A DNA stretch of 64,000 nucleotides from the NCBI GenBank assembly GCA_963514005.1, contig OY740805.1, positions 36,146,001 through 36,210,000 on the forward strand, given 5' to 3'. Below the pieces are notes generated by a model. That model did not search any database, was not told the DNA's origin, and saw nothing but the letters and a program-made list of their open reading frames with translations. This stretch comes from Raja brachyura (taxonomy: Eukaryota). Shown piece by piece: positions 1 to 46,200 of this stretch (the stretch's first letter is position 1; every line of letters starts with the position of its first letter). Position numbers and translations under genes: made by a program.

Positions 1-317
1 CTGAGTCTGCGCCGACCCGCGATCAGCCCGTACACTAGTTCGATCCTACACACTAGGGATAATTTACAGAAGCAGATTAACCAGCGCGTCTTTGAAGTGT
101 GGGAGGAAACCGGAGCACCTGGAGGAAACCCACGCAGTCACGGAGAGAACGTGCACGCTCGCACACGCAGACGCACGCACACTCAGACGCGCACACACAC
201 TCGGGATCGAGTTCAATCCTGACTGCCGGTGCTGACCGTCTGGAGTTTGCACGTTCTACTTGTGACTTGTGACCGCGTGGGTTTCCTCTGGGCGCTCTGG
301 TTTCTGCCCACATTCAG

Positions 318-5800: not shown

Positions 5801-6197
5801 GAGAGTGAGAGAGTGAGAGAGTGAGAGAGTGAGAGAGTGAGAGAGTGAGAGAGTGAGAGAGTGAGAGAGTGAGAGTGTGTGTGTGAGAGTGAGTGAGTGT
5901 GTGTGTGAGAGTGAGTGAGTGTGTGTGTGAGAGTGCGTGAGTGAGTGAGAGTGCGTGAGTGAGTGAGAGTGCGTGAGTGAGTGAGAGTGCGTGCGCGAGA
6001 CTGTGTGAATGTGAGACTATGAATGAGCGTGCGTGAGAGTGTGCGTATCAAGGGCAGCACAATGGCGCAGCAGTAGAGTTGCCGCCTCACAGTTCCACAG
6101 ACTCGGGTTCGAACCCGACTCCGGGTGCTGTCTGCACGTAGAATGCACGTTCTCCCCGTGACCTGTGTGGGTTTTCTCCGGGATCTCCGGTTTCCTC

Positions 6198-6233
<36 letters not shown>

Positions 6234-9200: not shown

Positions 9201-9240
9201 CATCAAGGTGCTGGTGGACCCCATCGCAGTGCAGATGTGA
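2697..9240 (+). CDS. TNF receptor-associated factor (TRAF2/3/5-like), 3' part: join(2697..2801,5117..5290,5487..5558,6721..6807,8386..9240); 5 TRAF zinc fingers + coiled coil + MATH/TRAF-C domain; RING exon(s) probably upstream of window
   Basis: Five exons each flanked by (Y)nCAG and GT, all phase 0, spliced into an open 430-aa frame ending in TGA at 9238-9240. C-x2-6-C...H-x3-7-C/H zinc fingers, and MATH signature motifs [56 protein letters not shown]. Confidence 0.93.
3226..3530 (+). mobile_element. tRNA-derived V-SINE (HE1-like)
   Basis: Same structure, with a (taaac)n tail. Confidence 0.85.
5117..5290 (+). CDS. TRAF-like zinc-finger exon: [21 protein letters not shown]...[14 protein letters not shown]
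   Basis: ccacag acceptor, gtgagt donor at 5291, 174 bp phase 0-0, Cys/His spacing of TRAF zinc fingers. Confidence 0.9.
5487..5558 (+). CDS. TRAF-like zinc-finger exon: [24 protein letters not shown]
   Basis: ttgcag acceptor, gtgaga donor at 5559, 72 bp phase 0-0. Confidence 0.88.
5697..6000. repeat. (GAGAGAGT)n microsatellite grading into GT/GA repeats
   Basis: Direct inspection. Confidence 0.95.
6721..6807 (+). CDS. TRAF-like zinc-finger exon: [29 protein letters not shown]
   Basis: cctcctgcag acceptor, gttagt donor at 6808, 87 bp. CPFKEVGC matches the last TRAF zinc finger (C-x-F-x-x-x-G-C). Confidence 0.9.
7665..8125 (+). mobile_element. CR1 LINE 3' fragment in TRAF intron
   Basis: Same CR1 3' end as the other copies, ending gcacctgttgtctatt. 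Confidence 0.8.
8386..9240 (+). CDS. TRAF-like terminal coding exon: end of ZF5, linker, coiled coil and complete MATH domain
   Basis: Acceptor ttttcctctctgatccgcag ending 8385. In frame with ORF 8071..9240, whose first ~105 codons are intronic repeat sequence. GC-rich codon usage. Confidence 0.95.
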   Translation, partial: LPQHEMSAHLRSSQESHLLLLLSLATSLRPTSPGEGGSTPQDSARTPAGERPRSPEGEAVAGAGTGLQSLAGRADNLERWVCGLNKDLDRYAQVIEVLQQKCLQYEQVIQGLQTAGGRAEGLGGPGPVSTDGVLVWKIKNFSAHLSAAKAGQRPSFYSPHFATHPFGYRMCCRIYPNGDGAGKGSHVSLFLALVRGEYDEVLPWPFRQKVTFMLLDQAGQKHLKESFSPDSLSGSFQKPRSHMNVASGCPTFAQHALLHKGPGQYLRNDTIFIKVLVDPIAVQM

Positions 9241-24505: not shown

Positions 24506-25228
24506 TCCCCCTTACCCTACCCCCCTCCCCCACATAGAAATATTAAGAAACCTCCAGAATGTACTATTTTTTAAACAGACTAAAAATAACAAAAAAAACC
24601 CCAAAAACAGACAGACCGTAGGCAGAGCCTGCCATCAGAATTTAAAAGATTGAGGGGGGATCTGATAGAAACTTACAACATTTTTAAGGGGTTGGACAGG
24701 CTAGATGCAGGAAGATTGTTCCCGATGTTGGGGAAGTCCAGAACAAGGGGGTCACAGTTTAAGGATAAGGGGGAAGTCTTTTAGGACCGAGATGAGAAAA
24801 TCATTTTTCACACAGAGTGGTGAGTCTGTGGAATTCTCTGCCACAGAAGGTAGTTGAGGCCACTTCATTGGCTATATTTAAGAGAGAGTTAGATGTGGCC
24901 CTTGTGGCTAAAGGGATCAGGGGGTATGGAGAGAAGGCAGGTACAGGATACTGAGTTAGATCAGCCATGATCATATTGAATGGCGGTGCAGGCTCGGAGG
25001 GCTGAATGGCCTACTCCTGCACCTATTGTCTATGTTTCTATGTTTCTATCACACGGCTCCCCCTAGTGGAGAATCTACCACCTGCTCTGGCAGCTCATTC
25101 CATACACCCAGCCTCGGTGGGAAACACATGCCTCTCATAGCCCCTCTTACATTTACACACTCTCTCTCTCTCTTTGCACCTCTGTCCCGTTACCTTGGAA
25201 CAAAATACTTTGGATTCTTACCTTGATC

Positions 25229-25260
25229 TTAGTTTTCTTCCGGGTTCAGTCCACGTTTTG
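25229..25260 (-). CDS. Last coding exon: (A)KRGLNPEEN-stop; exon continues to a donor at 25222, so the 3' UTR is spliced
   Basis: ctcctctgatccacag acceptor, TAA at 25231-25229, then gatcaag|gtaaga. Confidence 0.72.
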
Positions 25261-28200
25261 CTGTGGATCAGAGGAGGAGTGGAGTTGAGAACAGGAGCAA
25301 AGAGATCCTCCTGCAGTTGTACAGGGCCCTAGTGAGACCACACCTGGAGTAGTGTGTGCAGTTTTGTTCCCCTAATTTGAGGGAGGACATTCTTGCTATT
25401 GAGGGAGTGCAGCGTAGGTTGACAAGGTTAATTCCCGGGATGGTGGGACTGTCATATGCTGAGAGAATGGAGCGGCTGGGCTTGTACACTCTGGAATTTA
25501 GAAGGATGAGAAGGGATCTTATTGAAACATATAAGATCATTAAGGGTTTGGACATGCTAGAGGTAGGAAACATGTTCCCGATGTTGGGGGAGTCCAGAAC
25601 CAGGGGCCACAGTTTCAGAATAAGGGGTCGGCCATTAGCAACACTGCAGATGACACAAAGCTGGGTGGCAGTGTGAACTCTGAGGAGGATGCTATGAGAA
25701 TGCAGGGTGACTTGGACAGGTTGGGGGTGTGGGCAGATGCAGTTTAATGCGGATAAATGTGAGGTTATCCACTTTGGTAGCAAAAACAGGAAGGCAGATT
25801 ACTATCTAAATGGCGTCAAGTTGGGAAAAGGGGAAGTACAACGGGATCTGGGGGTTCTTGTCTATGAAAGTAAGCATGCAGGTACAGCAGACAGTGAAGA
25901 AAGCGAATGGCATGTTGACCTTTAGAACAAGAGGAATCGAATATAGGAGCAAAGAGGTCCTTCTGCAGTTGTACAGAGCCCTGGTGAGACCACACCTGGA
26001 GTATTGTGTGCAGTTTTGGTCCGCTAATTTGAGGAAGGACATTCTTGCTATTGAGAGAGTGCAGCGAAGGTTTACAAAGTTAATTCCTGGGATGGCAGGA
26101 CTGCCGTATGCTGAGAGAATGGAGCAGCTGGGCTTGTACACTCTGGAGTTTAGAAGGATGAGAAGGAATCTCATTGAAATATATAAGATTATTAAGGGTT
26201 TGGACACGCTAGAGGCAGGTAACATGTTCCCGATGTTGGGGGAGTCCAGAACCAGGGGCCACAATTTAAGAATAAGGGGTAAGCCATTTAGAACGGAGTG
26301 GAGGAACCACTTTTTCCTCACAGAGAGTTGTGAGTCTGTGGAATTCTCTGCCTCAGAGGGCGGTGGAGGCCAGTTCCCTGGATACTTTCAAGAGTGAGCT
26401 CGATAGGGCTCTTAAAGATAGCGGAGTCAGGGGATATGGGGAGAAGGCAGGAACGGGGTACTGATTGGGGATGATCAGCCATGATCACATTGAATGGCGG
26501 TGCTGGCTTGAAGGGCCAAATGGCCTCCTCCTGCACCTGTTGTCGATTGTGGCTCTTTAGCCTGGTGTCCACTGCCGTGCTTTGTTCCTTGTGATTCTTA
26601 CCCGTCACGTTCAGCTCATCATATCCGTCATCCTGCCTGCAGAGCAAAGAGGTGATCACGGGGTTAATGAGACGAGGGCTCTGGCTCGTTGCCATTCTAA
26701 CTTTAACTTTCTAAACTATATTTCTGTCATTCCTACTTTAAGGGCGGCGCGGTGGCGCAGCAGTAGAATTGCTGCCTCACAGCGCCAGAGACCCAGGTTC
26801 GATCCCATCTACGGGTGCTGTCTGTACGGAGTTTGTACGTTCTCCCCGTGACCTGCGTGGGTTTTCTCCGAGATCTTCAGTTTCCTCCCACACTCCAAAG
26901 ACGTACAGGTTTGTGGATTAATTGGCTTGGTTTGAATGTAAAAACTGTCGCTAGTGGGTGTAGGATAGTGTTAATGTGCGGGGATCGCTGGTCGGCGCGG
27001 ACTTGGTGGGCTGAAACTGTATCTCTAAACTAAACTAGTGCACGGGGTTAACTTTGGCTGGCATGGACTCAGTGGGCCGAAGGGCCTGAATCCACGCTGT
27101 TACTCTGGGTGTGTGGAACGAGTTGCCAGTGGAGGTAGTTGAGGCAGGTACTATAACAACACGTAAAAGTCATTTGGACAGGTGCACGAGAGGAATAGAT
27201 CGGGTAGACGCACAGCGTCTTTTACCCAGAGTAGGGGAATCGAGGACCAGAGGACATAGGTTCATGGTGAAGGGGAAAAGATTTCATAGGAATCCGAGGG
27301 GTAACTTTTTCACACAGAGGGTGGTGGGGGTATGCAACGAGCTGCCAGAGGAGGTAGTTGAGGCTGGGACTATCCCATCGTTTAAGAAACAGTTGGACAG
27401 GTACGTGTGCATGACCTTGGCGCCTTTCAGAGGGGGGCGGGCTTAAGGGGTTGGACAGGCTAGATGCAGGAAGATTGTTCCCGATGTTGGGGAGGTCCAG
27501 GACAAGGGGTCACAGCTTAAGGATAAGGGGGAAATCCTTTAGGACCGAGATGAGATGGACTTTTTTCACGCAGAGAGTGGTGGGTCTCTGGAACTCTCTG
27601 CCACAGAGGGTAGTTGAGGCCAGTTCATTGGCTATATTTAAGAGGGAGTTGGGTGTGGCCCTTGTGGCTAAGGGGATCAGAGGGTATGGAGAGAAGGCAG
27701 GTACGGGATACTGAGTTGGATGATCAGCCATGATCATATTGAATGGCAGGCTCGAAGGGCCGAATGGCCTACTCCTGCACCTAATTTCTATTTTTCTATG
27801 TTTCTATGGATAGGACAGGTTTGGAGGGTTATAGACCAAGAGCAGGCAAGTGGGACTAGAGCAGCTGGGACATTGTTAGCCGGTGTGGGCAAGGTGGGCC
27901 GAAGGGCCTGTTTCCACACTGTATCACTCTATGAGTCTATAACTGCAGATGCTGGTTTAAACTGAAGATAGGCACAAAATGCTGGAGCGACTCAGCGGGA
28001 CAGGCAGCATGTCTGGAGAGAAGGAATGGGCGACGTTTCGGGTCGAGGCCCCTTAGATGGATAGAGAAGGTTTAGAACAGGGGTGGGCAACCTTGTTCTG
28101 CATAGGGTGCGGACGGATGTCTGTGAGTGGATGGCAGGACACATCTATCACGTGCTCACGTGGATCCCACCCAGCACGCCACCCGGAGCGCTGGCCACTA

Positions 28201-31200
28201 GTTGGGGTCACTCACCAACACGGCACACCTACGGACCATTGCCTTGGCTCTGTCCTGAAGGGCGGTGGCTCAAATGGCTCACACTCACTCGCCCCCGGCC
28301 TACAGACAACGCAGATCCCCGACAGTGAAGCCCAGACACAGAAGGTGCGCGGGCGGCCGTGCCGGCGGCTTTGCGCAGGATGCGGTACAGTCGGCACTGG
28401 GCGCCACTCGGCTGCTCCGCCATTGCGACCACCAGCACAGGCCTCCTTGCAACACCGCGCCTCGGGCCCGGGAGGTACCGGAGGTGCGGAAGTCTGTGGG
28501 ACGGGTAATTACGGGGAACAAGATCCGCCTGCGGGCCGGGTAATACCGGTTTACGGGCCGCATTCGGCCCGGGGGCCGTAGGAAAGTAGGCTATTATCTG
28601 AATGGCGGATGATTAGGAAAAGGGGAGATGCAACGAGACCTGGGTGTCATGGTACACCAGTCATTGAAAGTAGGCATGCAGGTGCAGCAGGCAGTGAAGA
28701 AAGCAAATGGTATGTTAGCATTCATAGCAAAAGGATTTGAGTATAGGAGCAGGGAGGTTCTACTGCAGTTGTACAGGGCCTTGGTGAGACCACACCTGGA
28801 GTATGGCGTACAGTTTTGGTCTCCTAATCTGAGGAAAGAGATTCTTGCCATAGAGGGAGTACAGAGAAGGTTCACCAGACTGATTCCTGGGATGGCAGGA
28901 CTTTCATATGGAAAAAGACTCGATAGACTTGGCTTGTACTTGCTAGAATTTAGAAGATTGAGGGGGGATCTTATAGAAACTTACAAAATTCTTAAGGGGT
29001 TGGACAGGCTAGATTCATGAAGATTGTTCCCGATGTTGGGGAAGTCCAGAACAGTTTAAGGGGGAAGTCTTTTAGGACCGAGATGAGAATTTTATTTTTT
29101 CACACAAAGAGTGGTGAATCTGTGGAATTCTTTGCCACAGAAGGTAGTTGAGGCCAGTTCATTGGCTATATTTAAGAGGGAGTTAGATGTGGCCCTTGTG
29201 GCTAAAGGGATCAGGGGGTATGGAGAGAAGGCAGGTATGGGATACTGAGTTGGATGATCAGCCATGATCACATTGAATGGCGGTGCAGGCTCGAAGGGCC
29301 GAATGGCCTACTCCTGCACCAATGTTCGATGTTTTTATGTTTCTATGACCCCTGATTTAGAGGTTTATGGGCCAAGCATGGGCAGGTGGGATGTGTAGGT
29401 TGGTCATCGTGGGTCAGCATGGGCAAGCTGAGCACAAGGGCCTATTTCTGTGCAGCAAGTCTCCTTGACTCCAGACACTAAAAACATAAGATAAATAAAC
29501 AACTCACTCCATCTCATCATCCCCCACCGATGCGTTGGGAGGTTGGTCCGTGGACGGTTTTTGAACGATAATCGCGTATTGTATCCCCTCGTCCGTGGAC
29601 GTCTGTTGGAGCAGAAGGATTAGATTCAGAGGCGATGGACGACAAAAGCGTAGAAGAAAAATTCAGTTCAGTCCATTGCCACGTGTACCGAGGTACAGTG
29701 AAAAGCTTTTGTTGCGTGCTATCCAGTCAGTGGAAAGACAATAGACAATAGACAACAGGTGCAGGAGGAGGCCATTCGGCCCTTCGAGCCAGCACCGCCA
29801 TTCAATGTGATCACGGCTGATCATCCCCAATCAGTACCCCGTTCCTGCCTTCTCCCCATATCCCCTTACTCCGCTATCTTTAAGAGCCCTATCTAGCTCT
29901 CTCTTGAAAGCATCCAGAGAACCGGCCTCCACCGCCCTCTGAGGCAGAGAATTCCACAGACTCACAACTCTCTGTGAGAAAAAGTGTTTCCTCGTCTCTG
30001 TTCTAAATGGCTTACCGCTTATTCTTAAACCTCGGGTGCTGTCTGTACGGAGTTTGCACGCTCTCCCCGTGACCGCGTGGGGTTTTCTCCAGGTGCTTTG
30101 GTTTTCTTCCACAAAGTGTTTCCTCGTCTCCGTTCTGAATGGCCTACCCCTTATTCTTAAACTGTGTGGCCCCTTGTTCTGGACTCCCCCAAATCTAACT
30201 CTCTCTTGAAAACATCCAGTGAATTGGCCTCCACTGCCTTCTGCAGTAGAGAATTCCACTAATTCACAACTCTCTGGGTGAAAAAGTGTTTCCTATCTCC
30301 GTTCTAAATTGGCTACATCTTATTCTTAAAGTGTGTGGCCCCTGGTTTTGGACTCCCCCAACATCGGGAACATGTTTCCTGCCTCTAGTGTGTCCAAACC
30401 ATTAATAATCTTAAGAAGGAACTGCAGATGCAGTTGTGAAGAAGTGTCCCGACCCAAAATGTTGCCTATTTCCTTCGCTTCGTAGATGCTCAGCTCCTAA
30501 CAGCATGGTGTGCTGACAATAACCTGGCCCTCAACTCCAAGAAGACCAAGGAGCTCATTGTGGACTTCAGGAGATTGAGAGGCTGCACGCACACCCCCAT
30601 CCATATTAACAGGACAGAGGTGGAACGTGTCTCCAGCTTCGGGTTCCTGGGGTTCAACATCTCCGATGACCTCTCCTGGACCCACAACACATCCTCGCTG
30701 ATCAAGAAGGCTCGCTCAAGAAGGCTCACCAGCGTCTCTTCTTCCTGAGGAGACTTAAGAAGGTCCACCTGTCTCCCTAGAGTCTGGTGAACTTCTACCG
30801 CTGCACCATCGAGAGCATCCTTACCAACTGCAGCACAGTATGGTGTGGCAACTGCTCTGTCGCCGACCGGAAAGCTCTGCAGAGGGTGGTGAAGATTGCC
30901 CAACGCATCACAGGCTCCTCACTCCCCTCCATTGAGTCTGTCCATAGTAAACGATGCCTGCACAGGGCGCACAGCATCGCCAGGGACAGCTCACACCCCA
31001 ACCATAGACTGTTTACCCTCCTCCCATCCGGGAGACGCTACAGGTCCCTCCGCTGCCGGACCAGCAGGCTCAAGAACAGCTTCTTCCCTGCGGCTGTCGC
31101 ACATCTCAACGCTGCGCCTCAATGACTGCCTGTCTCCACCCCTCCCCCCGGACACTGTATATGTATAGATGTATATACTCATACTACTGCGCAATTACTT

Positions 31201-34200
31201 GTTTATTCATAAGTTCGCCCTTCGGAGATACCAACTGCATTTTGTTGTCTCTGTATTGTACACTGCACAATGACAATTAAAGATTGAATTGAATTGAATT
31301 GCTACCGCAGCAGCTGAGTTTCTCCAGCACTTTTGTCTACCTTAATAATCTTATATGTTTCAATAAGAACCCCCCTCTCATCCTTCTCTACTCCAGAGTG
31401 TACCTGATTACAATTAAGCCGTTTACGGTGTAGTTACAGATAACATTTAGTGCAAGGTAAAGCCAGCAACATCCAATTAAACATAGTCCGAGGCTCTCCA
31501 ATGAGGGGTTCAGCACTGCTCTCTGGTTGTGGTAGGACGTGTGCGGACGAGGTGCCGACAGACAAGAGGCCGAAGCAAAGAAGACGACGCCAAAGAACCG
31601 AATAGAAACGAGGCCGAAACGCCAATGAACCGAAATAGTCTGAAGACGAAACATCTACTAATTAAAAGGATGGGACGCCTAAATGCAAACTAACCGAAAG
31701 GGCGGGACGCCTAAACGCCTACGAACTGAAACGTTGCGTCGCCTAAAAGCAAACTTACCAAATGGCCACTTAGTCGATACGCCACCTACCCGAAAGGCGG
31801 CGTTGCCTACAGGCCAACGGGCCGACTGCCGCTCAACAGAAACGTCCAATAACGGACTTGGCGTTGCCAGGGGGCGGGACTTGTCAGCGATTGGTCCAGA
31901 CCTCCGTGTCCATTACATCACTGTGAAGGCATGAACATTGTCCCAAACCTCCTCTCCACCCGACCCACAGCTCTCGGAGGGTGGTCGTGGGAGAGTGGGG
32001 GCTGTCCCGAGGGATGCGCACCTTCGGTCGCTTTCAACTTGGTGCTTGGGTTCAGATTGCCCAGTCACCTATGGCTTGTGTAGGAAAATGAACCCCACGC
32101 TCCCGTCTCTCCCTTCTCTCTCCTCCCTTCCTTCTCTCTTCTCTCTCTAGCCTCCTCTCTCTCTCTCCTCCTCTCTCTCCTTTTTATTTTCCAAAAACTT
32201 ATTCAACTCAATCATATAATGACAACACATCAAAACATAATCAAAAATAACACTATAACAAACAAATCATTGTAGTACAACAGTACATTCATTGTTTACA
32301 ATATTCTCAACCCCACGCGGTGACCAGCGTTGACGGAAGGCCTCCAGAGTCCCCGTGGANNNNNNNNNNNNNNNNNNNNNNNNNNNNNNNNNNNNNNNNN
32401 NNNNNNNNNNNNNNNNNNNNNNNNNNNNNNNNNNNNNNNNNNNNNNNNNNNNNNNNNNNNNNNNNNNNNNNNNNNNNNNNNNNNNNNNNNNNNNNNNNNN
32501 NNNNNNNCGGTAGCGTCCCACAGTCACTGACCGCGATACACCGCCTCGGACCCCAACCTCCACACCAGGGCGATTCCCCTCCGACCCCCCGGTCTTTGAC
32601 ACCCACACCAGAGTGATTCACCCTGGCCGCGGGGACAGACGGTTTATTTAATACCGTCTCGGTGTTTGCGGAACGCACCCACGCTCCCACGAACAAAACA
32701 GGCAGCATCTCTGGAGAGAAGGAATGGGTGACGTTTCGTGCCGAGACAATTCTTCAGAGTGTGTCCGAAGGGTCTCGACCCGAAACGCCACCCATTCCTT
32801 CTCTCCAGAGATACTGGCTCTTCAGCTGAGTTACTCCAGCATATTATGTCTATCTTTGGTGTGTCTGAATAATGGTTTAAGAATAAGGAGTAAGCCATTT
32901 AGAAAAGGGAAGAGGAAACACTTTTTCCACACAGAGAGTTGTGAGTCTGTGGAAATCTCTGCCTCAGAGGGCGGTGGAGGCAGGTTCTCTGGATGCTTTC
33001 CAGAGAGAGTTAGATAGGGCTCTTAAAGATAGCGGAGTCAGGGGATATGGGGAGAAGGCAGGAACGGGGTACTGATTGGGGATGATCAGCCATGATCACA
33101 TTGAATGGCGGTGCTGACTCGAAGGGCCGAATGGCCCACTCCTGCATCTATTGTCTATTGTCTAATTTGGCTCCTACGCCTTATGAACAGGTAAGAAGGA
33201 AATGAGTAGACAATGGGCCGAATGGCCTCTGATGTTGGAAGGATAGGAGGAATGTTATGGTAGGTTCATGCTTACGTTTCCGTGGGAGATGTGGATTATG
33301 TTCCTCTGGGTCTTCGTATCTGGGGGAGAAGCGGATGAGAAAACGTCAGTGGCTATCGCTGCAGCTGAAGGCAACAGTGGGACGGAGACATTGGGTGGGC
33401 AGCAGTGAATGGGGGGCACATCCAGGAGCGAGGGATGCGGACGGAGATCCGGAGGGAGGGATGGTGGGGGAAGGAGAGAGGGGAGAGGGGGAGGAGGGAG
33501 GGATGGGGGAGTTGGGGAGGGGGAGGAGGAATGGAGGAGAGAAGGATCGTAGGGTGTGAGTGGAGGAGTGAGGGAGCGATGGTGGTGGGTAGGGAAGGAG
33601 GGAGGTGAAGGGAGGGNNNNNNNNNNNNNNNNNNNNNNNNNNNNNNNNNNNNNNNNNNNNNNNNNNNNNNNNNNNNNNNNNNNNNNNNNNNNNNNNNNNN
33701 NNNNNNNNNNNNNNNNNNNNNNNNNNNNNNNNNNNNNNNNNNNNNNNNNNNNNNNNNNNNNNNNNNNNNNNNNNNNNNNNNNNNNNNNNNNNNNNNNNNN
33801 NNNNNNNNNNNNNNNNNNNNNNNNNNNNNNNNNNNNNNNGGGAGGGGAGATGAGAATGGGAGAGCGGGGAGGGGAGGAGAGGGGAGAAGGGAGAGGAGGG
33901 GAGCGGAGGGTAGATGAGGAGAGGGGAGAAGGGAGGAGAGGGGAGGGCAGGAGAGGTGAGAGGAGGGGAGCAGAGGGAGGGGAAGGGGGGGGAGAGGAGG
34001 GTAGATGAGGAGAGGGGAGAAGAGAGGAGAGGAGAGGGGAGGGGAGGGAGGAGAAGGGAGGGGAGGGTAGATGAGGAGAGGGGATAGGAGAGGAGAGGGG
34101 AGGGGAGGAGAAGGCAGGGGAGGGGAGGGGAGGGGAGGAGAGGTGAGGGGAGTGGAGGAGAGGGGAGGGGAGGGGAGGGGAGGTGAGAATGGGAGAGCGG

Positions 34201-37200
34201 GGGAGGGGAGGAGAGGGGAGAAGGGAGAGGAGGGGAGCGGAGGGTAGATGAGGAGAGGGGAGAAGGGAGGAGAGGGGAGGGCAGGAGAGGTGAGAGGAGG
34301 GGAGCAGAGGGGAGGGGAAGGGGGGGAGAGGNNNNNNNNNNNNNNNNNNNNNNNNNNNNNNNNNNNNNNNNNNNNNNNNNNNNNNNNNNNNNNNNNNNNN
34401 NNNNNNNNNNNNNNNNNNNNNNNNNNNNNNNNNNNNNNNNNNNNNNNNNNNNNNNNNNNNNNNNNNNNNNNNNNNNNNNNNNNNNNNNNNNNNNNNNNNN
34501 NNNNNNNNNNNNNNNNNNNNNNNNNNNNNNNNNNNNNNNNNNNNNNNNNNNNNNNNNNNNNNNNTCGATCATGCCTGGTGCCGGGGAGGGTTTGGTTATG
34601 GCGGTGCGGACTGACTTGCCTCCATCTTGGTCGGGTGGTGCGTTGAAGGTCCTCAGGCTGTAAGGAGAAAGCGGGTAGAGTGGTCAACACAGAGGGAGAA
34701 AACGTGGCCCCCGCTTCCACCTGCGTCTCCTCATGCGGCGGCACGGTGGCGCAGTGGTAGAGTCACTGCCTCACAGCGCCCGGTTCCATCCCGTCCACGG
34801 GTGCCTTCTGCATGGAGCTTGTACCTTCTCCCCGCGACCTGTGTGGGTTTTCTCCAGGTGCTCGGGTTTCCTCCCACACCCTAAGTACGTGCGTATTTGC
34901 AGGTTAATTGGCTTCTGCCAATTGTAAAATTGTCCCCAGTGTGAGTGTGGGTGGGATAGTGCTGGTGGATGGGGAGGATCGTTGGTCGGCGCGGACTCGA
35001 TGGGCCGAAGGGCCTGTTTCCGCGCTGAATCTCTCAACTAAACTAAGTTCAACTATCTGACCTTGACGCCCCCCTGAAAGATATAAGATTGTTAAGGGTT
35101 TGGACACGCTAGAGGCAGGAAACATGTTCCCGAAGTTGGCGGAGTCCAGAACCAGGGGCCACACAGTTTAAGAATAAGGGGTAAGCCATTTAGAATGGAG
35201 ACAAGGAAACACTTTTTTCACACAGAGTTGTGAGTCTGTGGAATTCTCTGCCTCAGAGGGCGGTGGAGGCCGGTTCTCTGGATACTTTCAAGAGAGAGCT
35301 AGATAGAGCTCTTAAAGATAGCGGAGTGAGGGGATATGGGGAGAAGGCAGGAACGGGGTACTGATTGGGGATGATCAGCCATGATCACATTGAATGGCGG
35401 TGCTGGCTCGAAGGGCCGAATGGCCTACTCCTGCACCTATTGTCTATTGCACGTTCTCCCTGTGACCACGTGGGTTTTCTCCGGGCGCTCCGGTTTCCTC
35501 CCACACTCCAAAGAGGCACAGGTTTATTGACTTCTGCAAATTGTAAATTATCCCTGGAGTGTGTAGGATAGTGCTAGTGTATGGGATGATCGCTGGTCGG
35601 CATGGACTCGGTGGGCCGAAGGGCCTGTTTCCTCGCTGTATCTCTGAAGCCTACAGTAAAGCAGACTGGCATCAGTCTGAAAAAGGGTCTGGACCTGAAT
35701 CGTCACCCATTCCTTCTCTCCAGAGATGCTGCCTGACCCGCTGAGTTACTCCAGCACTGTGTCTATCAGCGGGTGTAACGATGGTTCGCGAATGACATTC
35801 ACGGTTGTTGAATCCATACCAACCTTTCCATGGGAAGGTAGATCGATGGGTTTGCCAGCTGGGATTCCTGTCAAAGGCAAAGAAAGCTGATCACAAATCT
35901 ATTCCGTGCATTGGTATGTTCGTAAGAGCAGAATTAGTCCATTCGGCCCATCAAGTCTACTCCGCCATTCAATCACGGCTAATAGACAATAGACAATAGG
36001 TGCAGGAGTAGGCCATTTGGCCCTTCCAAGCCAGCACTGCCATTCAATGTGATCATGGCTGATAATCCCCAATCAGTACCCCGTTCCTGCCTTCTCCCCA
36101 TATCCCCTCACTCCGCTATTTCCCCTGACATCTCCCCATATCCCCTGACTCCCCTGACTCCGCATCCAGAGAACCGGCCACCACCGCCCCCTGAGGCAGA
36201 GAATTCCACAGACTCACCACTCTCTGTGAGAAAAAGTGTTTCCTCTAAATGGCTTACTCCTTATTCTTAAACTGTGGCCCCTGGTTCTGGACTCCCCCAA
36301 CATCGGGAACATGTTTCCTGCCTCTAGTGTGTCCAAGCCCTTAACAATCTTATATGTTTCAATGAGATCCTCTCTCATCCTCCTAAACTCCAGAGCGTAC
36401 AAGCCCAGCTGCTCCATTCTCTCAGCATATGTCAGTCCCGCCATCCTGGGAATTAACCTGGTGAACCTACGCTGCACTCCCTCAATACCAAGAATGTCCT
36501 TCCTCAAATTAGGGGACCGCAAATGCACACAATACTCCAGGTGTGGTCTCACTAGGGCTCTGTACAACTGCAGAAGGACCCCTTTGCTCCTATATTCGAT
36601 TCCTCTTGTTATAAAGGCCAACATGCCATTCGCTTTCTTCACTGCCTGCTGTACCTCCATGCTTACTTTCATAGACTGATGTACCAAGACCCGCAGATCC
36701 CGGATGATCTATCTCTCCCTCCTAACCCCATTCTCCCGCCCAATGATGGTCCAATTCTACATGGCCATCGTAGATTCTGTCCTAACCTTCTGCATCATGG
36801 TCTGGTTTGGCTCAGCCACCAATCACGGCATCCGGAGCCGGCAGCAAATCGTCCAATCAGCTGAGAAGGTTTTAAAGAAGGAACTGCAGATGCTGGAGAA
36901 TCGAGGGTTACACAAAAAGCTGGAGAAACTCAGCGGGTGCAGCAGCATCTAAGGAGCGAAGGAGATAGGCGACGTTTCGGGTCGAGACCCTTCTTCAGAC
37001 TGGCAGTCTGAAGAAGGGTCTCGACCCGAAACGTCGCCCATCTCCTTCGCTCCTTAGATACTGCTGCACCCGCTGAGTTTCTCCAGCTTTTTGTGTAACC
37101 CCCAGCTGAGGTTATTGGCTGCAACCTTCCCTCCATTGATGAACTGTACACTGCAAGGGCCAGGAAGCGAGCGGGTAAGATCATCTCTGACCCCTCTCAC

Positions 37201-40200
37201 CCTGGCCACAAACTCTTTGAATCACTTCCCTCTGGAAGGCGACTCCGGACTGTCAAAGCTGCCACAGCCAGACATAAAAACAGCTTTTTTCCACGAGTGG
37301 TAGTTCTACTCAAAAACCAAAAATCTGTAGCCTCCTTTTGTTCTGGTATTTTATTTAGTTCACATGTTTAATCGATAATGTTTCATTATTAATGTTTAAT
37401 GTTTTATGTGTCATTCCTAACTATCACTGTATGTCATGTTGTCACTTGCGGGCGGAGCACCAAGGCAAATTCCTTGTATGTGAATACTTGGCCAATAAAC
37501 GTATTCAAACATTCATTCATTCATTCTCCGCATAAACCTTGACACCTGTACTCCAGCACTTTTGTGTGTATCTTCAGTTTAAACCAGCATCTACACTTGA
37601 CGTTTTACCTCCCCCCTTGACTCCATCCAAGGACCCAAGCAGTTTTTCCAGGTGAGGCAGAGGTTCACCTGCACCTCCTCCAACTTCATTCATTGCATCC
37701 GCTCCTCTATATGTCAGCTGATCTACATCGGTGAGACCAAGCGTAGGCTTGGCGATCGCTTCGCCTAATACCACCGCTCGGTTCGCAATAACCAACCTGA
37801 TCTCCCGGTGGCTCAGCACTTCAACTCCCCCTCCCATTCCGAATCCGACCTTTCTGTCCTGGGCCTCCATGGCCAGAGTGAGGACCACTGCAAATTGTAG
37901 GAGTAGCGCCTCATATTTTTTGCTTGGGCAGTTTGCACCCCAGCGGTATGAATATTGACCTCCAATTTCAGGTAGTCCCTTCTTTCTCCTCCCCTTCTCA
38001 GTTCTCCCTCAGCCCACTGCCTCCACCTCTTCCTATCTTTTTCCCACACCCATCCACACTCACATCAGTCTGAAGAAGGGTTTTGCTCCGTAGATGCTGC
38101 CTCACCCGCTGAGTTTCATCAGATTTTTGTCCACCTTCGTTTGTACAGCATCTGCAGTTCCTTCTTAAACATCTGCAGTTCCTTCCTCCACATCCTACTA
38201 TTTCCCCCACTTTCCTCCCCATCAATGTTGCAGATCCATTTCCCACCCCAGTTCTGTTGCAAAGTCAACAGATTTAACTCTGCCGTTCCCCCCCGGCCTT
38301 TCCGCAATTTATCTTGGATCCTCCGTCGGCTGCGGGTCCGTTCCAATTGGACTCACCAGTTCCGGCTCGTCATCCGTAAGAGGTGAAGTCGGATCAGCTG
38401 CAAAATTAATTATGTACATATTAATGTAGGCAAATTAGCAAGCCCCGCCCACTTACTTAGCATAGAAACCACACCCCCATTCCCTGTTCACCCCCCAGCC
38501 CCTCCAATTCTTTTCCCGTGCAAACACAGAGTTGCAAACATAAGGGCCGAATGGCCTACTCCTGCACCTATATCCTATTTTCTATTGAATGGCGGTGCTG
38601 GCTCGAAGGGCTGAATGGCCTACTCCTGCCCCTATTGTCTTTTGTCCATTGAATGGCGGTGTTGGTTCGAAGGGCCGAATGGCCTACTCCTGCACCTATT
38701 GCCTATTGACCAGTGCGGCCACAGTGGCGCAGCGGTAGAGTTGCTGCCTCACAGCGCCAGAGACCCGGGTTCGATCTCGATTACAGGTGCTGTCCGCTAT
38801 CTTTAAGAGCCCTATCTAGCTCTCCCTTGAAAGTAACCAGAGAACCGGCCTCCACCACCCTCTGAGGCAATTAAGGGATTGGAAACGCTAGAGGCAGGAA
38901 ACAGGTTCCCGATGTTGGGGGAGTCCAGAACCAGGGGCCACACAGTTTAAGAATAAGGGGTAGGCCATTTAGAACGGAGATGAGGAAAGACTTTTTCACC
39001 CAGAGAGTGGTGAGTCTGTGGAATTCTCTGCCTCAGAGGGCGGTGGAGGCCGGTTCTCTGGATACTTTCAAGAGAGAGCTAGATGGAGGTCTTAAAAATA
39101 GCGGAGTCAGGGGATATGGGGAGAAGGCAGGAATGGGGGTACTGATTGGGGATGATCAGCCATGATCACATTGAATGGCGGTGCTGGCTCGAAGGGCCGA
39201 ATGGCCTACTCCTGCACCTGTTGTCTATTGTCCATCCAACGTCTCCCTGTGGCTGGAAGTCTCTAATCCAGGCACCATTCTGGTACGGGGCTTTAAAACC
39301 ACAGGCTCAGCTCTGGATAAAACGCTGAGTTTACTTACCGTCTGTCACCATTGGAGTCAAAGGGAATGCCTCTAAACTGTGGAGCAAGGAAGAAAGAACA
39401 GTTAGTGTTGGAAGGAACTGCAGGTGCCACTTTACACCGAAAATAGGCACTAAATGCTGGAGTAACTCAGCGGGCCAGCCAGCATCTTTGGAGAAAAAGA
39501 ATAGGTGACATTTCAGGTCAAAGATGGAACGCAACCCGCAATGACATCGACTCACAGAGTGATACAGTGTGGAAACAGGCCCTTCGGCCCAACTCGCCCA
39601 CACCGGCCGACATGTCCCAGCTACACTAGGCCCACTTGCCTGCGCTTGGTCCATATCCTTCCAAACCTGTCCTATCCATGTACCTGTCCAACTGGTTTCT
39701 TAAACGATGGGATAGCTCCAGCTTCAGCTACCTCCCCTGGCAGCTTGTTCCATACTCCCACCACCCTCTGTGTGAAAAAGTTACCCCTCGCATTCCTAAT
39801 AAATCTTTTCCCCTTCATCTTGAACCTATGTCCTCTGGTCCTCGATTCCCCTACTCTGGGCAAGAGACTCTGTGCATCTACCCGATCTATTCCTCTCATG
39901 ATTTTGTACACCTCTGTAAGATCTCCCCTCATCCTCCTGCGCTCCATGGAATAGAGCCCCAGCCTACTCAACCTCTCCCTATAGCTCACACCCTCTAGTC
40001 CTGGCAACATCCTAGTAAATCTTCTCTGAACCCTTTCAAGCTTGACAACATCTTTCCTATAACATGGTGCCCAGAACTGAACACAATATTCTAAATGCGG
40101 CCTCACCTATTCCTTTCCTTTCCTCCAGAGATGCTACCTGACCCACTGAGTTACTCAAGCAGCTAGTGTCAAAGATTGAACAATTAAGTGACCTTTACAC

Positions 40201-43200
40201 AATAACTGCACTCATATCTTAGTTTAGTTTAGTTTATTGTCACGTGTACCGAGGTACAGTGAAAAGCTTTTTGCTGCCTGCTATCCAGTCAGCGGAAAGA
40301 CAACACATGATTACAATCAATCCACTTACAGTGTACAGACACATGGTAATGGAATAACGTTTAGTGCAAGGTAAAGCCAGTAAAGTCTGCTCAAGGATAG
40401 TCCCAGGGTCACCAGCGAGGTAGATAGTAGTTCAGTGTTTAAGAAGGAACTGCAGATGCTGGAAAATGGGAGGTAGACAAAAATGCTGGAGAAACTCAGC
40501 GGGTGAGGCGGCATCTATGGAGCGAAGGAATTGGTGAGGTTTCGGGTCTGAGGAAGGGTTTCAGCCCAAAACGATGCCTATTTCCTTCGCTCCATAGATG
40601 CTGCCTCACCCGCTGAGTTTCCCCAGCAGTTTTGTCTACCATAGATAGTCGTTCAGGACTGCTCTCTGGTTGTGGTAGGATGGTTCAGTTGCCTGATAAC
40701 AGCCAGGAAGAAACTGTCTCTGAATCTAGAGGTGTGCGTTTTCACACTTCTGTACCTCTTGCCCGATGGGAGAGGGGAGACAAGGGACTGTTAAAGTGAA
40801 TGTTAAAGTGTGTAGCAACCACCCACCTTTGATCCAGAATAGTACCTGTGAAAGAATGGAGATAAAAAGAGAAAATATACTATTAGAGACACAAGGAACA
40901 GGCAGATGAAACCAGTTTAACCAAGCATCATGCTTGACACATAAATTGTGGGCCAAAGGACCATTGGCTGAAATCGCTTTTAAAACATGAGGGAGGGGGG
41001 GACACACAATGAGGCCTGTAAGCGAGCAGGCAAGATCATCTCTGACCCCTCTCACCCTGGCCACAAACTCTTTGAATCACTTCCCTCTGGAAGGCGACTC
41101 CGGACTGTCAAAGCTGCCACAGTTTTTATCCACGAGTAGTTGCTCTACTCAATGCCCAAAAATCTGTAGCCTCCCTTTGATCTGGTATTTTGTTGGTTCA
41201 CATGCTTAATCATAGAATCATAGAAAATAGGTGCAGGAGTAGGCCATTCGGCCCTTCGAGCCTGCACCGCCATTCAATATGATCATGGCTGATCATCCAA
41301 CTCAGTATCCCGTACTTGCCTTCTCTCCATACCCCCTGATCACTTTAGCCACAAGGGCCACATCTAACTCCCTCTTAAATATAGCCAATGAACTGGCGTC
41401 AACTACCTTCTGTGGCAGAGAATTCCACAGACTCACCACTCTCTGTGTGAAAAATGATCTTCTCATCTCGGTCCTAAAAGACTTCCCCCTCATCCTTAAA
41501 CTGTGACCCCTTAAACTTACAGGCGAGAATGAAATGCTCGGAGAAGGAGAAAGAGGTGCAGCGAGTGCACAGGCCTTGAGCCTGGTGAGACGCAGGAGGA
41601 GCCCGGCGGGGAGTCACCCCACAGAGCTCAGTCCCTCCACGTACTAGAGTCTCCCAACCCCTGCAGAGTGGTTATCAAGATGGCTGATCCGTGGGCGGTT
41701 GCTGCTGGGACGCAAGTCGGGGCCTGATCAACCCCGGCTGGGTTGCCTGGGTGAGGGTGCCTGATGGTGTGAGACCCGAAACACGCGATGACCCCAGGTC
41801 ACATCACTGAGGATGCGTCCCAGCGCATCTAGAAGATGTATATTTTTCACTTAACCCAAAATCATCTGGCCCTGCAGGCGCATTTTTTTTCAATTAGTTT
41901 TCGCGACCTGGGAACTGCAGACAGACCCGGGGCACGCAGGTGACCTGGGCGTTACAGTCAGGCCTGCCAGCCAACCTGGGCGCGTGGGCGAGCTGGGAAC
42001 TGCAGGTCCTTTGGCCCACTGTGTACACTAGCACCATCCGACACACTTGGGACAATTTACAATTTACTGAAGCACATAACCTACAAACCTGTACATCTTT
42101 GGAGTGAGGGGCAGGCGAGCTGACGTGGAAGCTACAGCCAGTCAAGTCAAGATTCAAGAGAGTTTATTGTCCTGTGTCCCAGATACGACAATGAAATCCT
42201 TGCTTTGCTTCAGCACAACAGAATATTACATGGAAACATAGAAGCATAGAAAATAGGTGCAGGAGGAGGCCATTCGGCCCTTCGAGCCAGCACCACCATT
42301 CATTGTGATCATGGCTGATCGTCCCCAATCAATAACCCGTGCCTGCCTTCTACCCACATCCCTTGATTCCACTAGCCCCTAGAGCTCTATCCGACTCTCT
42401 CTTAAACCCATCCAGTCATTTGGCCTCCACCGCCCTCTGTGGCAGGGAATTCCACAAATCCACAACTCTCTGGGTGGAAAAGTTTTTTCTCACCTCAGTC
42501 TTAAATGATCTCCCCTTTTTTCTAAGACTGTGGCCCCTGGTTCTGGACTCGCCCAACACTGGGAACATTTTTCCTGCATCTAGCTTGTCCAGTCCTTTTA
42601 TAATTTTATATGTTTCAATAAGATTCCCCCTCGTCCTTCTAAACTCCAGTGAATACAAGCCTAGTCTTTTTTTTGGTAGGCATAAATAAATACAGAACAG
42701 ATCGGTGTGTCCATATACCATTGCATATATATATATATACACACACACAAATAAATAAACAGATAAAGTGCAATGGGCTATTAATGATCAGATTTTGAGT
42801 TGAGTTTAATAGCCTGAGGGGCTATGGGGAAGTAGCTGTTCCTGTACTTGGATGTTGCAGATTTCAGGCTCCTGTACCTTCTACCTGAAGGCAGCAGGGA
42901 GATGAGTGTGTGGCCAGGATGCAAGTCCCGGGGCAAGCGAGCCCACCTGGGACTGGCAGTAGCGCCAAGGTCACAAAACAATGGGGGGGGGGGGGGGGTT
43001 GCCCCCCCCTCTCAAACCATGGGGGGGAGGGTGCATTTCTATGTTCTATGTCCCATAAGGTCTCCCCACATTTTCTGGCATTCTAGAGATTAAAAAATTC
43101 AATCTTATTAATTAGAGTCATATTAGAAGTCATAGAGTGACACAGCGTGGCACGCTGGCCATTTGGCCCAACTCGCCCTCACTGGCCAACATCTCCCAGC

Positions 43201-46200
43201 TACACTAGTCTCACCTGCCTGCGCTTGGTCCATATCCCTCCAAACCTGTCCTGTCATGTACTTGTCCAACTGTTTCTTAAACGTTGGGATAGTCCCAGCC
43301 TCAACTACCTCCTCTGGCAGCTTGTTCCATACACCCACTAAAAAGCCACCCCTCAGATTACTATTAAATCTTTTCCCCTTCACCTTGAACCTATGTCCTC
43401 TGGTCCTCGTTTCCCCTACTCTGGGCAAGAGGCACTGCCTACCCTGAATAAAATTATAACATAGTAATAACTAAATATAAATAGTAAAGGCATGGGAGAA
43501 TTATGCCTATGTAAGAGATCGATCTCTTAGGTAGGCATAATTCTCCGTGCCTTTCATCCGCAGCGCTTGTAACACGGGAAGCTCTGTGCAGCCCACGTGC
43601 CGTCAAGCGCTGCCTGAAGCCGTCAGTTTCAAGCGGGGCTGAAGGCAGCAGAAATTCTGCCTTTGCGGGGTTTTCAAATATGGGTTTCAGTTTCTTGGCA
43701 GGGTTTTCAAATATGGATTGTCAATATTTTAAGTGTATGTTAGGTAACAAAGAGAGAAGAATGGAGTTTGTGTGCCAATAATGTGGTAAGTACATTTTGT
43801 GTTTATATTTTTAAATATTGTATTTCCCGGGGTGTGGGGGTGGGGTGGAGAGCTCCTTTCCAAGCATTTGGCGAGTCTGGCCCGGGGTTAAGTTGCGGGG
43901 AGGGCACGAATGTTATGAATGAGGGGATTGGGATAATGCCACTTGCAACACTCCTTGCACAGAGGTGTGCAATGCCACCGCATTGAGGCAGATGGGGGGG
44001 GGGGGAGAGAGAGAAGTAGCTCGGGTGGCTGAGCGGCCGCTGGGCCGGACAGCGGAACCAGCCGCCACCGTAGCTCCTTCTGCCGGTCCCCGCTCACCTC
44101 TGGCAGCTCTCCGTCTAAAAACCTCTCTCCTGCCGCTCGCTGGCCTCACTCATGTCCTTAAATTCCGACAGCGCGATTGAGGTTACTCGGCTGTGGGAAT
44201 TTAAGGATTTTCAGGAAGCCGCTGACATGAGCGAAATCGGCGAACGGCAGGTGACAGGTGTTCCGACGGAGAGCACTGACAAAGGTGAGCGGGCCGGCAG
44301 AAGGTGCTGAAGTGGCGGCTAGTTCTGCTGTCGGGTCCCGTTGGCCGCTCCCCGAGCTACTTCTATCCCCAGCTACAGTGCGTGGCTTCACGCCCGGAGA
44401 GCTGCGCTAGTTGTGAGTGAGTGAGTTACTGGCAGTATCCCTGACACCCTCCTTCTCAACACTCGTGCCCTCCCCACAACTTTACCCCTGACTCTCCACA
44501 TGCTGTGAAAGGAACTGTTCCCCCAATTGGTCTAGGAAGCCTAGGAAGGGCAAATTGAAATGTCACTGCTTTTAATTAATTTATTTATTTAACGGAGAGA
44601 ACCATCTGCGCATGCGCGGTTTAATTCTTTTAAGCGGACTGAGTGCCTACCCTGAGTAATTACTCACGGCACGTGCCTGCTGTGTGTCTACCCGATCTAT
44701 TCCTCTCATGATTTTATACACATCTATAAGATCACCCCTCATCCTCCTGCGCTCCAAGGAATAGAGTCCCAGCCTGCTCAACCTCTCCTTGCAGTTCACA
44801 CCCTCTAGTTACTGAAACCATAATGTGTGACACACTGTCCCATCCAGTCCCAGAGGGGGAATGGATAGTGTGTTACAATAGACAATAGGTGCAGGAGTAG
44901 GACATTAGGCCCTTCGAGCCAGCACCGCCATTCCCAGTGATCATGGCTGATCATCCACAATCAGTACCCCGTTCCTGCCTTCTCCCCATATCCCCTGACT
45001 CCGCTATCTTTAAGAGCCCTATCTAGCTCTCTCTTAAAAGTATCCAGAGAACCGGCCTCCACCGCCCTCTGAGGCAGAGAATTCCACAGACTCACAACTC
45101 TCTGTGAGAAAAAGTGTTTCCTCGTCTCTGTTCTAAATGCCTTATTCCTTATTCGTAATCTGTGTGGCCCCTGGTTCTGGACTCCGCCAACATCGGGAAC
45201 ATGTTTCCTGTCTCTAGCGTATCCAAACCCTTAATAATCTTATATGTTTCAATAAGATCCCCTCTCATCCTTCTAAACTCCAGAGCATACAATACAATAT
45301 ACAATACAATACAATATTTTATTCCATGTCATTTAAACCTCAGTGAGGCTCAAACCAAACTCCGTTTCCACAGCCATACAAACAAAGACAATTCCTACAA
45401 ATACAAACAATTCACTTTACACAAACATCCATCACAGTGAATCTCCTCCTCACTGTGATGGAAGACAAAGTCTTTTCTATACAAGCCCAGCCGCTCCATT
45501 CTCTCAGCATATGACAATCCCGCCATCCCGGGAATTAACCTTGTAAACCTACGCTGCACTCCCTCAATAGCAAGAATGTCCTTCCTCAAATTAGGGGACC
45601 ATATCGGCACACAATATTCCAGGTGTGGTCTCACCAGGGCCCTGTACAACTGCAGAAGGACCTCTTTGCTCCTATACTCAACTCCTCTCGTCATGAAGGC
45701 CAATAGCCCATTCACTTTCTTCACTGCCTGCTGCACCTGGGTGACACACTGACCCACCCAGTTTGACTGGTCAGAGAGTTAAATAGTTCAACGTCCTTAC
45801 GTTTGGCTCTGCGGGTTTGCCTGCAGAGGTGGATGGAGACGAAGAGGATGCAGCCTTCCAACACGACCGAGAATGCCAGGATCAACAGGAGAATGGTGGC
45901 ACGTTTTATCTTCCCTGTGGAGAAGACAACAGCTCAGAACCTGCAAACAGCAACAGGCCATTCGGCCCCTCAAGGTCAGTCCAGCACACAGCTACATGCG
46001 GGCAGATCTGAACAGTTTATCATTGTATCAGCGAAGGTGACGTTTCTGGTCGAGACCCTTCTTCAGATTTAGTTTAGTTTAGTTTAGCTTTGTTTAGTTT
46101 AGTTGAGTGTAGTTTAGTTTAGAGGTACAACACAAAGACAGGCCCTTCGGCCCATCAAGTCCGCGCTGACCAGCGATCCCCGCACACCAACACTATCCTA

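What the first reader, a model, noticed from the sequence alone, without database searches (positions are those of the whole stretch)
26602..35867. One tail carries three different tyrosine motifs: YxxM, ITIM and hemITAM-like
Seen: SIYLPM (35824-35867), IQYAII (29508-29602) and EQDDGYDEL (26602-26636), each on its own exon. Knowledge: YxxM binds PI3K p85 (CD28, ICOS, DAP10). I/V/L/S-x-Y-x-x-I/L/V is the ITIM consensus (SHP-1/2, SHIP). DEDGYxxL is the Syk-recruiting hemITAM of CLEC-2 and Dectin-1. Inference: a switchable costimulatory/inhibitory receptor. A hemITAM-like motif on an Ig-superfamily NCR3 relative would be unusual.
Basis: partly seen in the sequence, partly recalled or inferred. 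Interest (0 to 1): 0.75.

Follow-up and report, generated by a model that had tools for sequence, protein, structure and literature searches.

The report
NKp30-like ray receptor with three-tyrosine tail
This gene of a ray-like fish is predicted to encode a relative of the killer-cell receptor NKp30 that lacks NKp30's usual membrane charge and instead carries three tyrosine signalling motifs, kept across sharks and rays, so it likely sends both activating and braking signals through its own tail.

Summary
A 13-exon model gives a 405-aa leader-V-V-TM-tail protein whose 135-aa tail holds exactly these three tyrosines. Both V domains are NKp30/NCR3-like; shark orthologues sit in MHC class III between RGL-like and C4B-H. 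All three motifs recur in 8 of 11 named shark and ray species, and 11 of 12 invariant tail residues lie in them. YxPM and the ITIM fit their consensus in 9 of 9 full tails. The hemITAM label fits only partly: DGYxxL in 2 of 9, the triacidic run in none. The membrane helix has Glu, not NKp30's Arg. New point: the ITIM lies in a frame-neutral three-exon cassette whose loss would leave YxxM-x6-YxxL, ITAM spacing; that join occurs in two paralogue models, but both lost the first tyrosine. No reads and no binding data. Verdict: real, conserved, self-signalling variant of the NCR3 family; the key paper on shark NCR3 could not be read.

The parts
51476..51521 (-). leader exon (ATG, signal peptide), phase 1
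   Evidence: leader resembles that of Mobula XP_062903900.1
50242..50580 (-). V1 exon: single-exon VJ-type IgV domain with GxG G strand
   Evidence: Pfam V-set E 2e-10; NKp30 E 2e-9; 53% to Mobula V1; AF2 pLDDT 89.7
47236..47568 (-). V2 exon: second VJ-type IgV domain
   Evidence: Pfam V-set E 1e-9; top PDB hit NKp30 E 9e-9; 100/100 clade with stingray membrane-proximal V
45801..45914 (-). transmembrane exon; Glu259 in mid-helix, no Lys/Arg in the helix
   Evidence: hydropathy; Glu in the same column in 6 of 12 aligned rows
40827..40845 (-). tail exon c1 (19 nt, phase 1 to 2)
   Evidence: splice sites and phase; weakest-supported exon
39339..39376 (-). tail exon c2 (38 nt, 2 to 1)
38357..38397 (-). 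tail exon c3 (41 nt, 1 to 0)
35824..35867 (-). tail exon c4 (44 nt, 0 to 2): Tyr320, I-Y-x-P-M (YxxM)
   Evidence: I, Y, P, M invariant in 9 of 9 tails; same 14-residue length as the block after the Heterodontus X5/X6 isoform difference
34620..34657 (-). tail exon c5 (38 nt, 2 to 1, GC donor); first exon of the frame-neutral cassette
   Evidence: homologous block follows the YxPM in relatives; a Chiloscyllium model ends after the same 12 codons
33276..33319 (-). tail exon c6 (44 nt, 1 to 0); cassette
   Evidence: needed for frame
29508..29602 (-). tail exon c7 (95 nt, 0 to 2): Tyr361, ITIM IQYAII; last cassette exon
   Evidence: ITIM consensus in 9 of 9 tails
26602..26636 (-). tail exon c8 (35 nt, 2 to 1): Tyr389 in acidic GYDELN motif
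   Evidence: E384 D386 Y389 E391 L392 N393 invariant in 9 of 9
25222..25260 (-). tail exon c9: last 10 codons, TAA at 25229-25231, then a GT donor (possible 3' UTR intron)
   Evidence: matches the C-terminus of Mobula and Hypanus models

Best explanation
The gene is predicted to encode a two-V-domain NKp30/NCR3-family receptor that lacks the transmembrane Arg of NKp30 and likely signals through its own conserved tail, with Tyr320 (YxPM) likely docking PI3K p85, Tyr361 (ITIM) likely docking SHP-1/2 or SHIP, and Tyr389 (acidic YxxL) likely acting as a Src-family/Syk hub. Shown: motifs, reading frame, family, conservation, MHC class III position of shark orthologues, TM Glu. Inferred: ligand (a B7-type protein by family), clustering helped by the polar mid-helix residue, phosphorylation by Src-family kinases favoured by the acidic residues before Tyr389, and a net output set by which tyrosines are phosphorylated and which SH2 proteins the cell holds, as debated for CD96. 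Tyr389 is better read as a CEACAM3-Y230-type half-ITAM than as a strict CLEC-2 hemITAM.
For: Open 405-aa frame over 13 phase-compatible exons. 12 of 135 tail residues invariant in 9 species, 11 of them in the 30 positions around the three Tyr (hypergeometric p 1e-7, related rows); identity to the window 16-20 of 30 in motif windows against 18-39 of about 100 elsewhere. NKp30 is the best non-antibody PDB match of both domains; family profile E 1e-29 for NKp30 against 1e-18 for SIRP-alpha. NKp30 normally uses a TM Arg and has no tail signalling (PMC6514059 passages); here no Lys/Arg in any of 12 TM rows. Paralogue Heterodontus XP_067865770.1 keeps the Tyr389 motif without the ITIM, so that motif is a separable module. 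CEACAM3 pY230 binds Src-family kinases, PI3K, Nck and Vav (PMC7026191 passages).
Against: No transcript or binding evidence. The hemITAM acidic run is incomplete and D(-2) is Y/F in 7 of 9. A matching ITIM need not work: the NKp44-1 ITIM did not recruit SHP-1, SHP-2 or SHIP in one study (PMC6514059). Tyr361-Tyr389 spacing is held at 28-30 residues in 8 of 8 tails, which equally suits one phosphatase with two SH2 domains. The TM Glu is Q, G, S, H or T in 6 of 12 rows. Three assembly gaps lie inside the gene.
Confidence: 0.55

Rival explanations
1. A purely inhibitory checkpoint-type receptor: Tyr361 and Tyr389 together engage the two SH2 domains of SHP-1/2, and YxPM serves mainly as an AP-2 endocytosis signal, as YVKM does in CTLA-4.
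For: Tyr361-Tyr389 spacing 28-30 in 8 of 8 tails while Tyr320-Tyr361 varies 36-43; sibling shark NCR3-like proteins carry tandem ITIMs with the same [IV]QYxx[LI] first motif (P0047, P0076, P0009); hydrophobic Y/F at -2 of Tyr389 in 7 of 9 is ITIM-like; CTLA-4 YVKM drives endocytosis (PMC11599192).
Against: Asp/Glu at +1 and +2 of Tyr389 is disfavoured by SHP SH2 domains and typical of Src/Syk ligands (recalled, not from a call); Gly at -1 in 8 of 9 is the residue that marks activating hemITAMs (PMC12669754); a paralogue keeps Tyr389 without the ITIM.
Confidence: 0.25
2. A splice switch: skipping the 177-nt cassette c5-c7 removes the ITIM and brings Tyr320 and Tyr389 ten residues apart (YxxM-x6-YxxL), an ITAM-like motif for Syk/ZAP-70; the long form inhibits, the short form activates.
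For: The skip keeps frame and gives Y-Y distance 10 in the window model; the same c4-to-c8 join stands in two RefSeq paralogue models from a shark and a ray (P0151, P0158); CEACAM3 shows that an ITAM-like motif tolerates Met at one +3 position.
Against: In both models with the join the first Tyr is lost (Asp, Cys), and in the Mobula one the last too, so no natural two-Tyr short form was seen; none of the 5 Carcharodon isoforms or 2 Heterodontus isoforms read shows the skip; ITAM spacing arises by chance in about 19% of placements; Met and Pro in the first half and no acidic residue at -3 in the window depart from the ITAM consensus.
Confidence: 0.13
3. The exons are chance motifs or a decayed gene without function.
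For: No reads were laid on the gene; exons were picked partly by phase.
Against: Intact 405-aa frame; motif-focused conservation across sharks and rays; exon borders match isoform ends in relatives.
Confidence: 0.03

Closest known systems
NKp30/NCR3 and the shark NCR3 family (nurse shark QTT61898.1, QTT61904.1)
   Same: Single-exon VJ-type V domains, best PDB match NKp30, groups with named shark NCR3 against SIRP-like outgroups (98/96), orthologues in the MHC.
   Different: Two V domains (relatives 1-5), TM Glu instead of Arg, 135-aa nine-exon tail with three Tyr motifs; white shark orthologue lies about 13 Mb from the labelled NCR3 cluster and is left unlabelled in PMC10751288's table.
CD96 (human)
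   Same: Ig-superfamily receptor with ITIM plus YxxM in one tail and debated sign of output (PMC9866520 passages).
   Different: Nectin-binding, 45-aa tail, no acidic YxxL; not homologous beyond the Ig fold.
CEACAM3 and the CEACAM1/3/4 set
   Same: IgV receptor whose single pTyr hub is likened to a hemITAM; ITAM-like motif with one Met; ITIM and ITAM versions within one family (PMC7026191 passages).
   Different: There activating and inhibitory motifs are on separate genes; here both kinds share one tail.
CLEC-2 / Dectin-1 hemITAM receptors
   Same: DGYxxL in this species; acidic context; Gly at -1 in 8 of 9.
   Different: They are type II C-type lectins with a lone N-terminal YxxL and acids at -2, -3, -4 (PMC3576117, PMC3819593); here type I IgSF, two other Tyr motifs, -4 never acidic, -2 mostly Tyr.
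CD28/CTLA-4/ICOS/CD28X family
   Same: YxxM tail motif, GxG G strand, B7-binding relatives.
   Different: No PPP/EIP CDR3 motif, no YxxxxT TM motif, not a single V; none of the nine members described in PMC11599192 (parts 2-4 read) matches.

Membership tests
NCR3/NKp30 family | non-rearranging VJ-type IgV on one exon, GxG in G strand | tested here: met
   both V exons
NCR3/NKp30 family | sequence closest to NKp30 among known receptors | tested here: met
   V2 top hit NKp30; V1 has three antibody fragments marginally above NKp30; profile 1e-29 vs SIRP 1e-18, partly circular as the profile holds named NCR3; fold search ties NKp30 with SIRP-gamma at Z 14.4, rmsd 2.5, 105-106 aligned
NCR3/NKp30 family | MHC linkage | tested here: met
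   met for orthologues: white shark LOC121291130 and catshark LOC119975535 between RGL-like and C4B-H in PMC10751288 supplement; the window's own chromosome is unknown
Mammalian-type activating NKp30 | TM Arg pairing with CD3-zeta/FcR-gamma | tested here: not met
   Glu259, no Lys/Arg in the helix in 12 of 12 rows
Mammalian-type activating NKp30 | one V domain, short tail without own signalling | tested here: not met
   two V, 135-aa tail, three Tyr motifs
NCR3/NKp30 family | binds B7-H6 | not testable with these tools
   no binding data
hemITAM | DGYxxL consensus (PMC3819593) | tested here: inconclusive
   met in the window and Mobula, 2 of 9; GYxxL in 8 of 9
hemITAM | acidic residues at -2, -3 and -4 (PMC3576117) | tested here: not met
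   window 2 of 3 (plus E at -5); 1 of 3 in 7 of 9 tails; -4 is Q, H or K
hemITAM | dimer bridged by Syk tandem SH2 | not testable with these tools
   no phosphotyrosine or binding test available
ITIM | I/V/L/S-x-Y-x-x-I/L/V | tested here: met
   9 of 9 full tails; consensus as in PMC12669754
ITIM | recruits SHP-1/2 or SHIP | not testable with these tools
   none
CD28 family | YxxM tail motif | tested here: met
   I-Y-x-P-M in 9 of 9
CD28 family | single V with PPP or EIP in CDR3; YxxxxT in TM | tested here: not met
   read from the translation against PMC11599192
ITAM (cassette-skipped form) | YxxL/I-x(6-8)-YxxL/I | tested here: inconclusive
   spacing met in the modelled skip; first +3 is Met; the form itself not seen with both Tyr

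The most novel reading that the evidence does not exclude
An ancient MHC class III NKp30 relative of sharks and rays carries a split ITAM: two halves on separate exons held apart by a three-exon ITIM cassette, so that one splice choice flips the same receptor from a phosphatase-recruiting brake into a Syk/ZAP-70 plus PI3K activator, without any adaptor chain.
Probability: 0.13. Interest if true: 0.8.

Novelty: new variant of a known kind. Interest (0 to 1): 0.52.

Why it matters
NKp30 is the rare NK receptor traceable from sharks to mammals, and it is known as an adaptor-coupled activator. A subtype kept in both sharks and rays, in MHC class III beside C4, that signals through its own PI3K, phosphatase and Src/Syk-type motifs would show that the family held a CD28/CTLA-4/PD-1-like co-signalling receptor early on, and gives a concrete, testable link between NK receptors and T-cell co-receptors. 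The orthologues are annotated only as 'uncharacterized' in RefSeq. Each motif class and each pairing has a precedent, which caps the surprise.

Tried and rejected
No whole genome held. Word-based search with V1 among longer proteins: 0 of 240 candidates; the profile search also missed known members, so these searches are lossy. Sequencing runs: no RNA holder listed; 16 possible RNA runs with small shares only; no reads were laid, so expression and splicing stay open. Kinlein et al. 2021 on shark NCR3 genes not held. Idea that the tail arose by tandem duplication of a three-exon unit: phases repeat, but same-phase exons are only 9-14 of 35-44 bases alike and only 1 of 9 proteins gave p<0.05 uncorrected; not supported. 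First tree put V1 beside pIgR-like rows by long-branch attraction; rebuilt without pIgR-like, Ig light chain, P0054 and some duplicate domains (17 of 83 rows dropped) it joins stingray V1 at 99/94. Fold search does not separate NKp30 from other IgV. ESM Atlas on the Mobula tail: no hit at 0.9 or more, no structure over TM 0.3. Earlier findings: none in 4 look-ups. CD28-family membership rejected. TM Glu as a built-in adaptor for Arg-bearing siblings considered weak: it sits mid-helix, deeper than their basic residue (read). No complex prediction was run.
Full report
Observation. The E of EQDDGYDEL is a codon split across two exons. Joined directly, the three exons leave the frame after the first. 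After masking repeats by self-comparison I read the unique stretches and found the rest: leader, two V exons, a TM exon and nine small tail exons. The 13 exons are phase-compatible and give 405 aa with a 135-aa tail holding exactly three Tyr: 320, 361, 389. One donor (34620) is GC. This model is my prediction; no reads were laid on it. In the six-frame translation of the window, 55 of 2982 Tyr are followed by xxM, 200 fit the ITIM consensus and 1 fits DGYxxL, this one.

Family. Both V exons match Pfam V-set. Human NKp30 is the top PDB hit of V2 (E 9e-9) and the best non-antibody hit of V1 (E 2e-9, behind three antibody fragments). A 22-sequence profile scores NKp30 at 1e-29 and SIRP-alpha at 1e-18 (it contains named NCR3, so partly circular). 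The V1 model (pLDDT 89.7) ties NKp30 and SIRP-gamma at Z 14.4, so fold does not decide. In a tree of 66 V domains, V1 joins stingray V1 domains (99/94) and V2 the stingray membrane-proximal domains (100/100), inside a group with nurse shark NCR3 set against two SIRP-like rows (98/96) (114 columns, many forks open, human NKp30 not included, 17 rows dropped after long-branch attraction). The organism is therefore likely a batoid. In the supplement of PMC10751288 (search plus parts 5, 9, 17 of 98 read) the white shark orthologue LOC121291130 lies on the MHC chromosome between RGL-like and C4B-H, unlabelled and about 13 Mb from the five genes labelled NCR3; the catshark orthologue LOC119975535 lies between RGL-like and a gene labelled NCR3, near C4B-H. 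The window's neighbour is a TRAF3-like gene; sawfish has TRAF2-like and TRAF3-like genes in its MHC class III.

Conservation. The searches and cluster look-ups gave 25 protein models of this subgroup from 11 named species. 12 of 25 models, from 8 of 11 species (Mobula hypostoma, Hypanus sabinus, Scyliorhinus canicula, Heterodontus francisci, Chiloscyllium punctatum, Carcharodon carcharias, Cetorhinus maximus, Stegostoma tigrinum), carry all three motifs. The other 13 are partial or truncated models (including the only ones for Mobula birostris, Hemitrygon akajei and Chiloscyllium plagiosum), isoforms without the tail, or paralogues with other tails. For the count I aligned one full tail per species plus the window, 9 rows chosen because they had the tail. 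12 of 135 window tail residues are invariant, 11 of them within Y-5 to Y+4 of the three Tyr (30 positions; p 1e-7, rows not independent). Motif 1 is I-Y-x-P-M in 9 of 9; motif 2 fits the ITIM consensus in 9 of 9; motif 3 is E-x-D-[DYF]-[GE]-Y-[DE]-E-L-N in 9 of 9. Tyr361-Tyr389 spacing is 28-30 and Tyr320-Tyr361 36-43 in the 8 tails. Sharks and batoids split well over 200 million years ago (recalled).

The hemITAM label. PMC3576117 (passages) defines acids at -2, -3, -4 and shows they are needed for phosphorylation; PMC3819593 (passages) gives DGYxxL; PMC12669754 (passages) shows Gly at -1 favours activation. The window has G-1, D-2, D-3, Q-4, E-5. Across 9 tails G-1 holds in 8, D-3 and E-5 in 9, D-2 in only 2 (Y in 6, F in 1), and -4 is never acidic. 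So an acidic single YxxL is conserved, a strict hemITAM is not. CEACAM3, an IgV receptor, has a single pTyr hub likened to a hemITAM that binds Src-family kinases, PI3K, Nck and Vav (PMC7026191 passages); that its sequence is YEEL is recalled. YxxM with ITIM occurs in human CD96 (PMC9866520 passages).

Membrane helix. NKp30 uses a TM Arg to bind CD3-zeta or FcR-gamma and NCR tails lack signalling except NKp44 (PMC6514059 passages; a figure legend in PMC12272517, claims ITAM/ITIM in NKp30 isoforms, at odds with this). Here no Lys/Arg occurs in 12 of 12 helices; the mid-helix column is Glu in 6 and another polar or small residue in the rest. Polar mid-helix residues promote helix association (established knowledge, not tested), which would supply the dimer that single-YxxL signalling needs.

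Exon design. All seven exons c2-c8 have lengths of 2 modulo 3, so dropping one or two breaks the frame and dropping three keeps it. Dropping c5-c7 removes the ITIM and leaves YxxM-x6-YxxL with the tyrosines 10 apart. The same join stands in RefSeq models of paralogues in Heterodontus (XP_067865770.1) and Mobula (LOC134346461). Against a working split ITAM: the first Tyr is Asp or Cys in these two, the Mobula one lost the last Tyr as well, the isoforms read for the intact Carcharodon (5) and Heterodontus (2) genes do not show the skip, and such spacing arises in about 19% of random placements. For other species the distance of 10 follows only if borders are the same. Whether those models reflect splicing or exon loss is unknown.

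Mechanism. Most likely (0.55) a self-signalling, dual-output NCR3-family receptor: PI3K at Tyr320, phosphatase at Tyr361, Src/Syk-type hub at Tyr389. Rival (0.25): pure inhibitor using Tyr361 and Tyr389 as a tandem phosphatase site and YxPM for endocytosis. Rival (0.13): splice switch to an ITAM-like form. All SH2 assignments are inferred from motifs.

Novelty. NCR3 genes of sharks, some with ITIMs (seen here in sibling models), are a known family. Searches listed no paper describing this tail, and PMC11599192 (parts 2-4 of 6 read) has no matching CD28-family member. But Kinlein et al. 2021, which reports shark NCR3 subtypes, was seen only as a reference entry and could already describe it; the two nurse shark NCR3 proteins I could identify (QTT61898.1, QTT61904.1) belong to other subgroups. 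PMC12227049 was seen as passages. Rated a new variant of a known kind, interest 0.52.

Noticed in passing
window about 4983-9240, + strand: TRAF gene (MATH domain closest to TRAF3, E 7e-52) lying tail to tail with the receptor gene; sawfish has TRAF2-like and TRAF3-like genes in MHC class III.
   Followed up: partly
window 39376-26602, - strand: All seven tail exons c2-c8 have length 2 modulo 3 (38, 41, 44, 38, 44, 95, 35); no sequence trace of duplication was found.
   Followed up: partly
window 25222-25260, - strand: A GT donor follows the stop codon by 7 bases; shark orthologues have longer C-terminal extensions, so a once-coding downstream exon or a 3' UTR intron is possible.
   Followed up: no
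window 56601-57503, - strand: 300-aa open frame that reads like a Tc1/mariner transposase, upstream of the receptor gene (family recalled, not searched).
   Followed up: no
window 32360-34564: Three assembly gaps and a purine-rich low-complexity tract inside the introns around c5-c6; tail length against orthologues needs no hidden exon.
   Followed up: partly
P0001, P0002, P0157, P0160, P0171 (relatives): V-domain number varies from 1 to 5 in this subgroup, with near-identical tandem V copies in Mobula and Carcharodon.
   Followed up: no
P0151, P0158, P0017 (relatives): Paralogues with motifs knocked out (Tyr to Asp or Cys, ITIM block absent) or with a TM Arg and no motifs suggest paired activating, inhibitory and decoy receptors in the cluster.
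   Followed up: partly
sawfish NC_067438.1 5.896-5.961 Mb (PMC10751288 supplement): A 65-kb stretch without a listed gene follows the TRAF3-like gene, where an unannotated orthologue could lie.
   Followed up: no
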